Translations under genes and position numbers: made by a program | Part shown: one piece after another, positions 8,757 through 20,703 of the stretch | How positions within the stretch are numbered: the first letter of the stretch is position 1 | Layout: each line of letters starts with the position of its first letter | Notes under the pieces: generated by a model | Databases searched by the model: none | What the model was told of the DNA's origin: nothing | Seen by the model: only the letters and a program-made list of their open reading frames with translations | Origin: Octopus sinensis | Lineage: Eukaryota | Direction of reading: 5' to 3' | DNA: 29,388 nucleotides | Assembly: GCF_006345805.1 (NCBI RefSeq) | Contig: NW_021833155.1 | Span: 1-29,388, forward strand

Positions 8757-9370
8757 AATAGAAATATTAAAATTACTAAGTCTCTCTAAAAGAGAACAAC
8801 GGCAGCGTTCCCGGAAAATATTAGTTATCGCCATACTAATATGGCATTCTTATAAAAATAAGAAAAAAGCTGTCCGCTTATTAGCTCCATGAGGCCATCG
8901 CCTTAAGTTAGCTATTTGATACACAAACTGTATCCATATAACCTTTGAACAAGGGAGGTCAGTCGCTCCACACTACTTGGCCGGCAGCTACAGACGCGTT
9001 TCGGAGTATTGCCCCTTTTCAATGCAGCGTAGCCAAACCAGTAGGTGTCGCTTCCGACAATCTCTGTTCAAAGGTTTTATTTACCTAGCTTCGGTGGAAT
9101 ACATCCACTTGTTTTCAATAATAGAAATATTAAAATTACTAAGTCTCTCTAAAAGAGAACAACGGCAGCGTTCCCGGAAAATATTAGTTATCGCCATACT
9201 AATATGGCATTCTTATAAAAATAAGAAAAAAGCTGACCGCTTATTATTATGTGGATACAGTTTGTGTATCAAATAGCTAACTTAAGGCGATGGCCTCATG
9301 GAGCTAATAAGCGGTCAGCTTTTTTCTTATTTTTTTAAGAATGCCATATTAGTATGGCGATAACTAATAT
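8757..9370 (-). mobile_element. Retrozyme/pLTR-like non-autonomous element: 363-bp unit, partial tandem copy and inverted copy, within (TA)n
   Basis: GAAATATTAAAATTAC at 8761 recurs at 9124 (period 363). 9247-9370 is the reverse complement of about 8818-8941. The unit contains a hammerhead motif. Confidence 0.8.
8987..9028 (-). ncRNA. Minimal type I hammerhead ribozyme with a U3-A8 covariant core
   Basis: Minus strand reads GCUGCA [UUGAAAA] GGGG caaua CUCC [GAAA] CGCG [UC] UGUAGC. Stems I and II pair, stem III is the palindrome ACGCGU, and the cleavage triplet is GUC (cut between 8993 and 8992). Confidence 0.8.
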
Positions 9371-9392
9371 ATATATATATATATATATATAT

Positions 9393-9680
9393 ACCAATTA
9401 AGGACTGAACACGAAAAGTGGACAGTCAACATGCTAGATATAGACGTCAAATCGCCATTCTCCACAAAAAGTCTATGTTCTCAGATCAAACTCAACACCA
9501 AACCAAAACAATAAACAAGTGAAAAATATACGAAATAAATATTTACTCATGTACTAAATTTAGTTTCGGCTGTTATTTTCCGCAAGGAAAAGTGCAGCCA
9601 TCTTCAGCATGGTCCCATATAAAATGTAATTTGCTGTACTAAATGCCAACACGATACCGAAATAACGCGTGCATTATTAT
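9393..9680 (-). mobile_element. ~290-bp hammerhead-bearing solo pLTR/retrozyme-like element between (TA)n tracts
   Basis: Unique non-coding block flanked by (TA)n on both sides and containing a hammerhead motif. Confidence 0.7.
9548..9611 (-). ncRNA. Type I hammerhead ribozyme
   Basis: Minus strand reads CAUG [CUGAAGA] u GGCUG cacUUUUCC uugc GGAAAA uaa CAGCC [GAAA] CUAAAUUUAG [UA] CAUG. The cleavage triplet is GUA. Confidence 0.88.
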
Positions 9681-9896
9681 ATATATATATATATATAATA
9701 TATATATTATATATATATATATTATATATATATATATATAATATATATATATATTATATATATATATAGATATATATAGATATATTTAGATATATATATA
9801 TATATATATAGCTAGATAGATGTATATACTGTTATATTATAGATAAAGATATGTATGTATATATATATATATATATATATATATAATATATATATA

Positions 9897-10302
9897 CTAG
9901 CAGTATCGCCCGGCGTTGCTCGGGTTTGTAAGGGAAATAACTATATAAGCATTTTTAGTGAGTTATAGCAAAAAGTAGCAAAAAAATAGCAAAAAATTGC
10001 ATTAAAAATGGAATAAAAAATTATGGTAATTTTTTTTAAATCGTAGACTCATCGTAGACATTTTTAGAGAGTTACTTCCCTTATATAATAGCGAAAAAAT
10101 GCATTAAAATGGAAAAAATTATGGTAATTTTTTTTTTAAATCGTAGACTCATCGTAGACGCGCGCTAATACCCAGAAGGGCTCGATATGAATCACGACAA
10201 TAAGATACCCGGTTTTGGTTAAACTGCACCGCAAAATGTGGGAGTAGTTAGGAATCTAAATCGTAGGAGACAGACACACAACTTCACTTTTATATATAAA
10301 GA
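9897..10302 (-). mobile_element. Non-autonomous Helitron
   Basis: On -, it starts A|TC (10302-10301) and ends CTAG|T (9900-9897), with a GC-rich subterminal hairpin CCCGAGC-AAC-GCCGGG (9909-9924). An internal ~110-bp module is duplicated. Confidence 0.88.
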
Positions 10303-10303
10303 T

Positions 10304-11462
10304 TTGTGCAACTAAAACATTCGGTTGTGCAAATTCTTTGCACGGGAAACCTTCCCTGTGTGGCGGTAATTGCCGTTTTTGTGGATCTGTTTCAGCTTTT
10401 TTAGCGATTTCTGTTTTGGCGACTTCAAGCCATGAAGTCGTTATTCTAAAAGAACACTGGTCTCCTTGACAGCGCTTTATGACGTTGATTTCCCTACCCT
10501 GCCTTCCCCACAGCTTCACGAGGGAGGGAAGAAGGGGGAGAAGCAACACAGGTGCAGGTGCGAGCATGAACGCCAACGCCGCCACCGACACACGAAAAAA
10601 TTGGAAGAACCCAGACGACAGCTTCAGCCACCACCACCACCACCACCACCACTACCACCATGACCACCATCACCACTACGCCCATGACCATCACCACCAC
10701 CACCATCATCGAAGACCACCACCACCACCACCATCATCACCACCACCATCATCACCACCCCCACCACCTCGACCACCACCACCAACAACAACAACAACAC
10801 CACCACCACCACCACCACCATCACCACGACCACCATCACCACTACCAGCACCACCGCCTCCACCACCACCATACTATGCCTCTGCTCTCTCCTTTTGGCT
10901 ACTAAATCCATTACCATATTTCACAAGTACCATCGCCATACAATATTGCCTTCAAAAGTTTGTGTTTGGATAATATTTTTTAAGTAAAAGTTGTGCAACA
11001 ACTAAAACTTTCGGTTGTGCAAATTCTTTGTACGGGAAACCTTCCCTGTGTGGCGTGTTTCCCGATTTTGTAGGATTTGCTTTCTTAGCCATTTCTGTTT
11101 TGGTGTCTTCAAGCCATGAAGTCATTGTTCTAAAAGAACGCTGGTCTCCTCGACAACGCTTTACGACGTTGATTTTCTTACACTCCCTTCCCCACAGCTT
11201 CACGAGGGAGGGAAGAAGGGGGAGAAGCAACAACTTCCCTTTATTTAAAAAATATGCGTTAAAATGGAAAAAAATGATGTTAAATTATTTTTTAAATCGT
11301 AGACTCATCGTAGACGCGCGCTAATACCCAGACGGGCTCGATATGAATCATGACTATAAGATACCCGAATTTGGTTAAACTGCACCGCAAAATGTGGGAG
11401 TAGTTAGGAATCTAAATCGAAGGGGACAGACACTCACACAACTACAGTTTTATATATATAGA
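10304..11462 (-). mobile_element. Second, longer Helitron-family segment: own 5' TC end, no own 3' end, duplicated ~240-bp internal block
   Basis: 11235-11462 matches about 10075-10302, including the 5' terminus. 10304-10546 matches 10991-11233. Confidence 0.75.
10629..10872. repeat. (CAC)n trinucleotide microsatellite with CAT/CAA/GAC variants
   Basis: Directly visible. It produces the poly-His, poly-Pro and poly-Val ORFs. Confidence 0.95.
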
Positions 11463-11476
11463 TATATATATATATA

Positions 11477-18420: not shown

Positions 18421-18780
18421 GCCGTAGGAGTGGTTTTGTGATAGGAAGTTTGCTTACGAACCGCAGTGTTCTGGATTCAGTCCCACAGCGTGGCACCTAC
18501 GGCAAATGACTTCTACCATAGCTTCGGGCCGACCAAAGCCTTGTGAGTGGATATGGGAGACGGAAATTGAAAGAAGCCCGTTTGTGTGTCTGTTTATCCC
18601 TCGAATATCGCTTCACAACCGACGCTGGTGTGTTCACGTTCCCATAACTGATGGGTTCAGCAAAACAGGACGATAGATTAAGTGCTATGCCTACAAAAAA
18701 TAGGTCCTGGGGTCTATTTCCTCGACTAAAGGCGGTGTTCCAGCATGGCCGTAGCGAAATTACTGAAAATAGGAAAATAG
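18421..18780 (+). mobile_element. Diverged near-full-length tRNA-derived SINE
   Basis: Colinear with 11477-11880, with the internal microsatellite mostly deleted. Confidence 0.88.
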
Positions 18781-18884
18781 TAACTTGCGAAAAAATTGTA
18801 TATTCTAACCACATGTTCATAGGAGATAACTGAAATGAATATTTTCTAGAGTTACCTCCCTTGCATTTTATATCAACGACGCTA

Positions 18885-19075
18885 TTTGTTTCATTCATTT
18901 GACTGTGCCCATGCTGTAGCACCGCCTTTTCTCAAGCAAATCGACCCCAGGACTTATTCTTTCTAAGCCTAGTATTTATTCTATCGGTCTCTTTTGCCGA
19001 ACCGCTAAGTTACGGGGACGTAAACACACCAGCATCGGTTGTCAAGCGATGTTGGAGGCAGAAACTCAGACACAG
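18885..19075 (-). mobile_element. 3' half of the SINE, inverted relative to the neighbouring copy
   Basis: TTCTATCGGTCTCTTTTGCCGAACCGCTAAG is the reverse complement of 11741-11772. Confidence 0.9.
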
Positions 19076-20159
19076 AAACACATACACACACACAACCATG
19101 TGGTTGGTAAGCAAGCTATTTCCCATATATACACAAACAATGATGTTCTGAACGTTTTGGCCGCAACTGTACGTATATACATATATACATATTGATAGCC
19201 GTAGGAGTGGTTTGTTAACCTGAGAACAAGTTCAAGGTGAGCTCTGATTGGTTGTATGCAAATCACTTCATTAATGGGGTCCGGAACTCTCGTATGAGAA
19301 AAAACTTTCACGGCTGGGTCACATGAGTCGATGCGACTACCTTGGATATGCGTGGACTGTGCTCACACACGCACAAACACCCACACGTCCACACTCACGC
19401 TCATAGATACATGTAATGGCGCAAACTCGTAGCAATTTATGTTTTAAATATGTTGACATTAAAACCGAGACATTCTGGAGAAATTGTATGAGTGTGTGGG
19501 TCAGCCAATACGTGTGTGTGTGTGTGTGTGTGTGTGTGTGTGTGTGTGTGTGTGTGAGAGAGAGAGAGAGCGGCTTTTCATATCAGTGATTGTGTGTGCG
19601 TGTGACAGAAATAATCATTTTCTGTGTGTGTGTGTGTGTGAGCGACTGTGTGTTTTTATTTGTTTGTGTGTGTGCGACAATTACAGCAACAACAAACACA
19701 CATTTTCATATCACTAACTACGAAATCACCAGAAATTCAATTTATTGCGTCGTTAGCGACTACAGATATTGCTCATATGGCGACAATGTATTTTATTTCA
19801 AAAGTTGATAAAACAAATTCTCATTCTGGGGTGGAGGGGGCTGAGGTTCTAACTTGGGGTGCTAAGCACCCAATGCCCCCCGGTCACAATTGGTCTCATT
19901 CTGAGACCTCTCGGGTGTGAAATATTTGTTACAGGCTCAGTCTTTGGCCTCACTTTTGTGGATTTTGGGAAGTTAACAGAAGTTACTGAATTTGCAGTCA
20001 AATCTAGTTAAGTAATTTCTCTCCTTTTTTGTTAAGTTTTGTTGGAACTGGTGGATAAGAGGACAGTTTGGTCATTATCTTATATTGACTTTAGTTGTTG
20101 CATTTTAATAGTAGGTATTGGCTTGAAGGAGGGTTAGGTGTTTATGCAGTTTCCTGGTG

Positions 20160-20345
20160 GTGGGGGGACAAACACAGGCGCACAATCGTATACATATATA
20201 CAAATATATAAGACGGGCTTTTTTCAGTTTCCGCTACCATATCCAATCATAAGGATGCGGTCGGCCTGAGGCTATAGAAGAAAACACTTGCAGTGGGACT
20301 GAACCCGGAAGCATGTGGTTGGTAAGCATGCAACTTATCACACAC
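20160..20345 (-). mobile_element. Partial SINE
   Basis: GGGGGACAAACACAG..GACGGGCTTTTTTCAGTTTCC..GGGACTGAACCCGG. Confidence 0.85.
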
Positions 20346-20607
20346 ACACACACACACTCACACTTACATAGACACACACATAGGTATATATATGTGAGTT
20401 TGAAATATATCCTCATATCTCCAGAATTCAAACCTACATTAATATGGATGGATTTACATTTTCTGTGAACTAACAGGTTTTTTAAGACTGTGCAACATTA
20501 GAGAACTTTGGAAGTCTGCTTATTATCTAAATCTGATTTTTATAGAACTATCCTTGATGCTTCATGGGTGCAGCCTCACCCCCCTAAGATGTTTGGCGAA
20601 CTCAGAT

Positions 20608-20703
20608 GTGTTTTGGCTGATGAGTACGGGTCGCTTGTATTTGCTGCAATATTTGCAGCCTTAATAAAGCTGGTCTTCGTATGAAACAATTGTACTGAAA
20701 TAC
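20608..20703 (+). ncRNA. Type I hammerhead ribozyme with an extended stem II
   Basis: GUGUUUUGG [CUGAUGA] GUACGG..GCUU..GCUGCAA uau UUGCAGC..AAGC..UCGUAU [GAAA] CAAUUG [UA] CUGAAAUAC. Stem I is 9 bp including G-U pairs, stem III is the palindrome ACAAUUGU, and the triplet is GUA. Confidence 0.87.

What the first reader, a model, noticed from the sequence alone, without database searches (positions are those of the whole stretch)
8987..20703. Four unrelated type I hammerhead ribozymes within 12 kb, all with palindromic stem III, in (TA)n-associated elements beside a Penelope-like RT
Seen: complete hammerhead topologies at 8987-9028(-), 9548-9611(-), 12847-12924(-) and 20608-20703(+). They share only the core, yet every stem III is a perfect palindrome (ACGCGU, ACUAAAUUUAGU, ACAUAUGU, ACAAUUGU). 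Established: Penelope-like elements and retrozymes carry type I hammerheads whose weak palindromic helix III can be completed by dimerisation of tandem copies. Inference: this genome hosts several distinct ribozyme-bearing families (pLTRs or retrozymes), probably mobilised by Penelope RT/GIY-YIG proteins, which annotation would normally mask as simple-repeat DNA. Whether these families are already described cannot be judged from here.
Basis: partly seen in the sequence, partly recalled or inferred. Interest (0 to 1): 0.85.

Follow-up and report, generated by a model that had tools for sequence, protein, structure and literature searches.

The report
Penelope-element hammerheads; one 363-nt mini-element
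Four hammerhead ribozyme motifs (predicted self-cutting RNAs) each sit just before a TA repeat and likely mark the ends of Penelope-type jumping elements in what is likely an octopus genome; one lies in an abundant 363-base non-coding element likely moved by a Penelope protein, a known kind of system with new members.

Summary
A descriptor scan finds exactly four type I hammerheads, at the stated coordinates, all with palindromic helix III; shuffles give about 0.01 palindromic hits per window. Each cleavage site lies 123-236 nt upstream of a (TA)n tract, where Hydra-clade Penelope-like elements (PLEs) carry theirs. The broken RT/GIY-YIG gene nearby has Hydra-clade motifs. HH1 belongs to an abundant, ORF-less 363-nt unit. 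Its head-to-tail joint recurs in diverged contigs of three runs, its 3' end is fixed against (TA)n, and the ribozyme caps a predicted 145-nt rod with three compensatory pairs. Both window copies show PLE insertion marks: an inverted 5' piece and a ~60-nt 'tail'; one also has a partial tandem. Copy number of HH2-HH4 was not tested, and the HH3-RT link is unproven. Cleavage and expression were not shown. Palindromic helix III, the U3-A8 core, dimer cleavage, (TA)n targeting and retrozymes as PLE derivatives are all published. I found no paper describing these octopus families; Repbase and Dfam could not be checked. Verdict: real, new members of a known kind.

The parts
8987..9028 (-). HH1: type I hammerhead, 6-bp stem I, 4-bp stem II, U3-A8 core, helix III ACGCGU, predicted cleavage after C8993
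   Evidence: variants
8935..9080 (-). Predicted ~145-nt rod hairpin with HH1 at its tip
   Evidence: -59.7 kcal/mol, z -5.8 against 100 shuffles; three compensatory pairs among family variants
8755..9117 (-). One full 363-nt unit of the HH1 family; 3' end at about 8755-8760 against (TA)n
   Evidence: period 363; joint and (TA)n loose ends
9118..9246 (-). Partial upstream tandem copy (129 nt, pLTR-like direct repeat of 8755-8883)
   Evidence: 99% over 123 nt
9247..9370 (+). Inverted 5' piece (mirror of 8818-8941), lacking the last ~60 nt ('tail')
4983..5205 (.). Second, ribozyme-less insertion of the HH1 family: direct 3' piece 5105-5202 plus inverted piece 4983-5105, between TA tracts
9548..9611 (-). 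HH2: 4-bp stem I, extra U after A9, long stem II, 12-nt palindrome; site 159 nt upstream of a TA tract
9394..9677 (-). 284-nt piece between two TA tracts that carries HH2; likely a 5'-truncated element end
   Evidence: sequence, TA tracts; family status untested
12847..12924 (-). HH3: 4-bp stem I, A.C first pair of stem II, helix III ACAUAUGU; site 123 nt upstream of the (TA)40 tract at 12649-12728
14910..16608 (-). 5'-truncated, frameshifted PLE gene in three frames: RT C-terminal half, thumb, Asn/Pro-rich inserts, CxCX5C linker, GIY-YIG nuclease
   Evidence: tblastn E 7.5e-30 and 9e-28 to P0001; UniRef Octopus bimaculoides protein 84% identical over 16% of the query
20608..20703 (+). HH4: 9-bp stem I, long stem II, helix III ACAAUUGU; site 155 nt upstream of the TA tract at 20849

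Best explanation
The four motifs are type I hammerhead folds that likely mark the 3' ends of four separate Penelope-type retroelements inserted into TA repeats, and HH1 lies in an abundant 363-nt ORF-less unit that is likely copied in trans by a (TA)n-targeting Penelope protein. Shown: the motifs, their place and strand relative to TA tracts, the HH1 family, its fixed ends and its PLE-style insertion anatomy. Inferred: tandem source arrays are transcribed; two ribozymes of one family pair their palindromes to complete helix III and cut the multimer into units that may circularise; a PLE RT/GIY-YIG protein nicks (TA)n and starts reverse transcription at one of two internal sites about 60 nt apart, giving the direct and the inverted piece. 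The 8755-9246 copy runs 1.35 units through an intact cleavage site, so its template would have been a circle or an uncut multimer, not a cut linear monomer. HH2-HH4 are most simply 5'-truncated ends of other PLE or PLE-derived families. HH3 is about even odds to be the 3' ribozyme of the adjacent Hydra-type gene. The local density likely reflects repeated insertion into TA-rich ground, not a joint function.
For: Motifs far above chance. All 4 sites lie 123-236 nt upstream of a (TA)8+ tract on the sense strand, against a background of 0.17-0.20 per site. Published Hydra elements insert in (TA)n and mostly carry the ribozyme about 100-200 nt from the 3' end (PMC8557442 section 11 and Files S1/S2). 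In related Hydra-type loci, 24 of 49 with enough 3' flank have a sense hammerhead 64-513 nt after the ORF and 0 of 49 an antisense one. HH1 family: held by 20 of 24 listed runs in 10 studies. 4113, 1820, 1144 and 15 contigs were laid in 4 of those runs; TA-run loose ends lie at 9117-9121 in X1, X8 and X7; 5 of the 32 listed records bridge the unit joint by 31+ letters on each side, in X1, X2 and X8, with 6-22 differences. Compensatory pairs 8946/9070, 8975/9042 and 8984/9033 lie in the rod, and the majority allele turns the stem II G.U into G-C. Both inverted pieces start 57-63 nt inside the main end, and two X7 contigs end in TA runs at the matching place. Palindromes are unstable as hairpins (0 to +6.0 kcal/mol) but stable as self-duplexes (-6.4 to -10.8).
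Against: No cleavage or expression was shown. HH2-HH4 have no second copy in anything I could search. HH3 lies about 2 kb from the PLE stop codon, outside the 64-513 nt range, with short TA tracts at 14735-14786 in between; its A.C first pair was not seen among those loci. 25 of 49 Hydra-type loci had no hit under my descriptor. One majority variant (9072) and two minor ones break rod pairs, and phase is not shown for 8946/9070. Only 35 of 360 positions carry a listed variant, so few changes in the core is not itself evidence of selection. 231 loose ends were not shown, so a rarer path from the unit into an ORF is not excluded. In one PLE tested in vitro, ribozyme cleavage was dispensable for insertion (PMC11167929), and only 1 of 9 Xenopus retrozyme dimers cleaved (10.64898/2026.07.22.740005).
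Confidence: 0.75

Rival explanations
1. All four, HH1 included, are just 5'-truncated 3' ends of autonomous PLEs; no independent short element exists.
For: PLE insertions are usually 5'-truncated and form partial tandems with inverted pieces (PMC8557442). Most PLE hammerheads occur as singletons (PMC4209133). Short translations upstream of HH1 and HH4 faintly recall PLE C-termini by eye (the motif is recalled and was not tested).
Against: The joint at 9117/9118 recurs in diverged contigs of three runs, and no listed loose end leads from 9117 into other sequence. tblastn with three Hydra proteins found nothing significant upstream of any ribozyme except the 14.9-16.6 kb gene. This rival remains the likely reading for HH2-HH4.
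Confidence: 0.15
2. The HH1 unit is a classical satellite-like retrozyme amplified at DNA level or mobilised by a LINE, and the PLE gene nearby is coincidence.
For: Unit size, 6-bp/4-bp stems and a strongly self-paired predicted circle (z -5.4) match non-LTR retrozymes (PMC7229834). LINE remnants are also in the window.
Against: Two internal 3' ends (tail), an inverted 5' copy and TA targeting are PLE marks (PMC3846280 section 6, PMC11167929). No poly(A) tail is seen at either window copy.
Confidence: 0.07
3. The motifs are dead relics or chance folds with no ribozyme history.
For: The minimum-energy fold of short flanked fragments did not give the hammerhead for HH2-HH4, and Rfam does not match them. 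One HH1-family contig has a changed G12 and a shortened palindrome (X7 record 18).
Against: Shuffle rates, the shared position before TA tracts and compensatory change in HH1. Individual copies may well be dead.
Confidence: 0.03

Closest known systems
Hammerheads of metazoan Penelope-like elements (Cervera and de la Pena 2014, PMC4209133; dimer cleavage as reviewed in PMC6765202)
   Same: Type I fold, palindromic weak helix III, extra nucleotide after A9, long stem II with short stem I (HH2, HH3), U3-A8 core variant, many unrelated families per genome, mostly single motifs.
   Different: HH1 joins the U3-A8 core to canonical 6-bp/4-bp stems at the tip of a long rod. HH2's 12-nt palindrome is longer than any of the 24 found (8-10 nt).
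Hydra clade of PLEs (Craig et al. 2021, PMC8557442), including Hydra-1_Obim of Octopus bimaculoides
   Same: C-terminal GIY-YIG, CxCX5C linker, CxxC and CxH around the conserved E and N, no CCHH seen, (TA)n targeting, sense ribozyme near the 3' end.
   Different: The window gene is a different family from Hydra-1_Obim by eye, has low-complexity inserts, and has no ribozyme within 600 nt of its stop. None of the four motifs matches the Hydra-1_oBim motif of File S2. Most listed Hydra helices III are near-palindromes with 1-3 nt loops.
Non-LTR retrozymes (Cervera and de la Pena 2020, PMC7229834; Li, Clavereau and Pollet 2026, 10.64898/2026.07.22.740005)
   Same: Non-coding 170-400 nt unit, one type I hammerhead per unit, head-to-tail joints, self-paired predicted circle, proposed PLE origin and mobilisation; mussel units are 350-390 bp.
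   Different: Here the dispersed copies carry PLE integration marks (tail, inverted piece, TA target). The 2026 preprint's main text has no mention of molluscs, octopus or target sites. No two-ribozyme array and no circular RNA were shown here.
PLE insertion structure with direct pLTRs, inverted pLTR and tail (Arkhipova et al. 2013, PMC3846280; Frangieh et al. 2024, PMC11167929)
   Same: Two direct repeats, an adjacent inverted copy and an optional 3' tail set by two RT start sites; also Asn-rich inserts in the ORF and, in Pen1_Av, a 0.9-1.5 kb spacer before the 3' pLTR.
   Different: No ORF lies between the direct repeats (234 nt only). The tail is about 60 nt, not 30-40. The target is (TA)n, so no target-site duplication can be read.

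Membership tests
Type I hammerhead ribozyme | Core CUGANGA...GAA A...UH (or covariant U3-A8) with stems I-III, ends in stem I | tested here: met
   4 of 4 motifs; HH3 has a mismatched 10.1-11.1 pair
Type I hammerhead ribozyme | Self-cleavage at the NUH site | not testable with these tools
   contigs only; no assay
PLE-type dimerising hammerhead | Palindromic helix III, weak as hairpin, stable as homoduplex | tested here: met
   (computed energies)
PLE-type dimerising hammerhead | Second copy of the same ribozyme in cis at the locus | tested here: not met
   one motif per family in the window; source arrays elsewhere not seen
Hydra-clade PLE (14910-16608) | RT followed by C-terminal GIY-YIG; CxCX5C linker; CxxC/CxH; no CCHH | tested here: met
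   translation, alignments; features
Hydra-clade PLE (14910-16608) | N-terminal RWK and DKT motifs; placement on an RT tree | tested here: inconclusive
   window copy lacks the N-terminus; its homologues P0001-P0003 have RWK and DKS/DKT; no tree was built
Hydra-clade PLE (14910-16608) | Sense hammerhead near the 3' end, followed by (TA)n | tested here: inconclusive
   nearest sense motif is HH3, about 2 kb downstream; range in relatives 64-513 nt
Non-LTR retrozyme (HH1 unit) | Non-coding 170-400 nt unit with one type I hammerhead, multi-copy, head-to-tail joints | tested here: met
Non-LTR retrozyme (HH1 unit) | Tandem arrays with two or more complete ribozymes | tested here: inconclusive
   window copy is 1.35 units; no listed contig spans the whole stretch
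Non-LTR retrozyme (HH1 unit) | Expressed as circular RNA | not testable with these tools
   no raw RNA reads were served
PLE-mobilised insertion (HH1 family) | Partial tandem, inverted 5' copy, optional tail, fixed 3' end | tested here: met
   2 of 2 window copies have an inverted piece and tail offset, 1 of 2 a partial tandem; loose ends
Multi-copy family (HH2, HH3, HH4) | Other genomic copies with conserved core and covarying stems | not tested
   no genome held; the single read-laying run went to HH1

The most novel reading that the evidence does not exclude
The 363-nt octopus unit is a circular-RNA retrozyme whose dispersed copies record its mobilisation by a Penelope protein: two internal RT start sites about 60 nt apart, an inverted copy that stops at the base of the ribozyme rod, and a longer-than-unit cDNA through the cleavage site. 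That would be direct genomic evidence, with a ready substrate, for the open question of which enzyme moves animal retrozymes. The mutually non-pairing palindromes could also let coexisting families dimerise only with their own kind.
Probability: 0.3. Interest if true: 0.65.

Novelty: new member of a known kind. Interest (0 to 1): 0.4.

Why it matters
The ribozyme type, its palindrome and its link to PLEs are established, so four such motifs in a repeat-rich mollusc window are not a new system. The useful part is the HH1 family. It is a short, abundant, apparently unannotated ribozyme element (no Rfam hammerhead match; no paper found in my searches) that combines retrozyme size with PLE integration marks. 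It offers a compact substrate to test whether PLE proteins mobilise retrozymes in trans, whether the template is a circle, and whether a U3-A8 ribozyme with a one-pair helix III needs a dimer or a protein.

Tried and rejected
No whole genome was held, so there was no genome-wide scan, copy count or test of whether four motifs in 12 kb is unusual. An exact HH1 motif search found 0 matches in metagenome and viral contigs; an HH3 motif found 0 in prokaryote genome contigs; the PLE piece found no relative in viral contigs. No RNA holder listed; X7 is only guessed to be RNA, so nothing is concluded on expression. Summed contig depth (up to about 2 million) is not used as a copy number. Pfam gave no family for the 3 PLE pieces; of 6 proteins scanned, 2 others had sub-threshold hits. 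Rfam matches are microRNA models on TA/CA repeats and inverted repeats, all under their gathering scores; rejected. blastn and tblastx of the four elements against the 78 Hydra-type loci gave nothing significant. Only the HH1 region folds better than shuffles; the HH2, HH3 and HH4 regions gave z -0.7, +2.0 and -0.3. A scan for GAA plus palindrome found no further complete hammerhead. The 141-bp satellite and the 138-bp repeat carry no descriptor hit. Core invariance in the HH1 family was rejected as evidence (few variable sites overall). Lunse et al. 2017 is not held and is known here only through the review PMC6765202. Earlier findings by place and by sequence: none.
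Full report
Observation. A type I hammerhead descriptor on both strands of the window returns exactly the four motifs named, each with a perfect palindrome as helix III. Two sets of 200 dinucleotide shuffles gave 0.3-0.4 hits of any kind (max 3) and 0.005-0.01 palindromic hits (max 1). The descriptor was written after seeing the motifs and allows a U3-A8 core and a mismatched first pair of stem II. 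U3-A8 and the extra nucleotide are described for PLE ribozymes (PMC4209133, parts 1-2 of 4 read). A mismatched first pair occurred in 8 of 24 ribozymes of related PLE loci, as U.U in the 7 printed. The four elements share no sequence, and Rfam lists no hammerhead family for them.

Setting. No genome was held. The window is repeat-rich eukaryotic DNA, likely octopus: a UniRef Octopus bimaculoides protein matches the PLE piece at 84% over 16% of the query, and the SINEs look familiar to me (recalled, not tested). The gene at 14910-16608(-) is a 5'-truncated, frameshifted RT/GIY-YIG ORF (tblastn to P0001, E 7.5e-30 and 9e-28). It has CxCX5C, CxxC and CxH and I see no CCHH, the marks of the Hydra clade (PMC8557442 section 11). 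That paper's supplement lists Hydra-1_Obim from octopus, (TA)n targeting, and ribozymes mostly about 100-200 nt from the 3' end (Files S1/S2). The window gene is another family by eye.

Position. Each predicted cleavage site lies 236, 159, 123 and 155 nt upstream of a (TA)8+ tract on its own strand. A random position does so within 250 nt with frequency 0.17-0.20; the 250-nt cut-off was chosen after seeing the distances. As a control I fetched 78 Hydra-type loci from metagenomes. 22 lacked a match to the C-terminus and 7 had under 150 nt of flank. Of the other 49, 24 have a sense hammerhead 64-513 nt after the ORF and none has an antisense one. Six of the 24 fall in two groups with the same motif, so they are not independent. 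Helix III was a perfect palindrome in 7, an odd-length near-palindrome in 9 and had one central mismatch in 8; 1 had the U3-A8 core. The window's motifs are therefore ordinary for this group, if somewhat more perfect.

The HH1 element. Between two TA tracts, 8755-9370 holds a 363-nt unit, a 129-nt partial tandem copy and an inverted piece; 4983-5205 is a shorter insertion of the same family with its own inverted piece. The stretch is held by 20 of 24 listed runs in 10 studies. I laid 4 of those runs on 360 of the 363 nt: 4113, 1820, 1144 and 15 contigs. Loose ends before 9117-9121 are TA runs in X1, X8 and X7, which fixes the 3' end. The joint at 9117/9118 is bridged by 5 of the 32 records shown, in three runs and with 6-22 differences, so the closed unit is a family trait. 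No listed loose end leads from 9117 into other sequence, but 231 were not shown. Both inverted pieces begin 57-63 nt inside the main end, and two X7 contigs meet TA runs at the same place (9179, 9184). That is the PLE 'tail', which in an anole PLE marks two internal RT start sites (PMC11167929, parts 1-2 of 4). The layout of two direct repeats, an inverted copy and a tail is that of Pen2a_Av (PMC3846280 section 6), without the ORF. The direct and inverted pieces at 4983-5205 share two private letters, which suggests the mirror half is made at insertion. Both inverted pieces stop at 8937-8941, the base of the rod described next (n = 2).

Structure and variation. HH1 caps a predicted 145-nt rod (z -5.8), and the whole unit folds well as a circle (z -5.4). 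Of 36 variant rows I scored 32; the 4 left out reach the listing share only in X7 record 18, a damaged copy. Of 22 rows in the rod, 6 are unpaired, 10 keep their pair alone, 3 are rescued by a listed partner change and 3 break a pair. The compensatory pairs are 8946/9070 (A-U to G-C; shares 74/90/93% and 73/81/92%, phase not shown), 8975/9042 and 8984/9033 (both changes at the depth of record 18). A fourth doubly variable pair does not restore pairing. By a hand estimate about one doubly variable pair is expected by chance, so this is moderate evidence. The majority allele makes stem II fully G-C (91-97%). One X8 contig shows the palindrome with its centre changed on both sides. Few core changes are listed, but only 35 of 360 positions vary, so I give that no weight.

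Mechanism. Shown: motifs, positions, family and ends. Computed: helix III costs 0 to +6.0 kcal/mol as a hairpin and gains 6.4-10.8 as a homoduplex, while cross-family duplexes give -1.2 to +0.9. Inferred: tandem source copies are transcribed and cut through a double-hammerhead fold (reviewed in PMC6765202, passages), and a PLE protein nicks (TA)n and reverse-transcribes from internal sites. Since the copy at 8755-9246 passes through an intact cleavage site and beyond one unit, its template would be a circle or an uncut multimer. These loci hold one ribozyme each and are likely spent copies; HH2 alone might fold helix III as a monomer. Which PLE clade moves the unit is unknown, since Naiad elements of octopus also target (TA)n. 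HH3 is on the PLE's strand with a T-rich interval between them, and long spacers have a precedent, but 2 kb is outside the range. I give that link about even odds.

Against. No cleavage, expression or circle was shown. HH2-HH4 were not tested as families. Ribozyme mutants of the anole PLE still insert in vitro, and 1 of 9 frog retrozyme dimers cleaved.

Novelty. Retrozymes of 350-390 bp are known in mussel (PMC7229834, passages and section 14). A 2026 preprint argues that animal retrozymes are non-autonomous PLE derivatives (10.64898/2026.07.22.740005, parts 1-3 of 5; supplements not seen); its main text has no mention of molluscs. Searches pairing hammerhead or retrozyme with octopus or cephalopod and related searches listed no paper on these families. 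The O. vulgaris repeat annotation has 0 occurrences of 'ribozyme' or 'hammerhead' in its main text (PMC13282606, term search; library not seen). Repbase, Dfam and subscription journals could not be searched. Verdict: new members of a known kind, interest 0.4, mostly for the 363-nt family.

Noticed in passing
window 3040-3067 (-): 5' half of a hammerhead-like motif (CCGACGA core, start of a stem) with no 3' half, about 100 nt upstream of the TA tract ending at 2940-2955; possibly a decayed fifth element end.
   Followed up: partly
window 15275-15600 and 15810-15990 (-): Asn/Pro/Thr-rich low-complexity inserts inside the PLE ORF, also present at like places in P0004 and P0011; recalls the Asn-rich inserts of rotifer Penelope elements (PMC3846280).
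   Followed up: partly
window 21100-22700 (-): Broken non-LTR retrotransposon remnant: a frame resembling an AP endonuclease start (21549-21977) and an upstream Cys-containing frame; identification is by recalled motifs, Pfam gave no family.
   Followed up: no
window 1-1310: 138-bp tandem array (5.1 copies) that reads as an open, charged frame on the minus strand, next to a frame with a weak C2H2 zinc finger (E 0.011); likely the N-terminal part of a non-LTR element.
   Followed up: no
window 9898-10550 and 10976-11463: Two rearranged copies of a repeat (86-92% identical segments) around a (CCA)n tract; the start looks Helitron-like to me (recalled, untested).
   Followed up: no
window 25276-29386: 141-bp satellite, 29.3 copies, 93% matches, preceded by a related 204-bp repeat at 24542-24978; no hammerhead hit.
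   Followed up: partly
window 7266-7431, 11475-11644, 16759-17069, 17449-17614, 18411-18581, 20205-20349: At least seven copies of one SINE-like repeat on both strands, 70-85% alike.
   Followed up: no
window 24438-24543, 17843-17931, 18580-19079: Stand-alone inverted repeats of about 106, 89 and 500 bp.
   Followed up: no
window 8873 versus 9236 and the inverted piece: The partial tandem copy and the inverted piece share one letter that the full unit and the 4983 copy lack; fits a non-identical multimer template or conversion between adjacent inverted repeats (one site only).
   Followed up: partly
L001, L020, L034, L049: Hydra-type loci with the same hammerhead motif at two places about 2.4-2.8 kb apart (in L001, L020 and L049 on both sides of the ORF), i.e. 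complete pLTR pairs; L040 carries a U3-A8 core.
   Followed up: no
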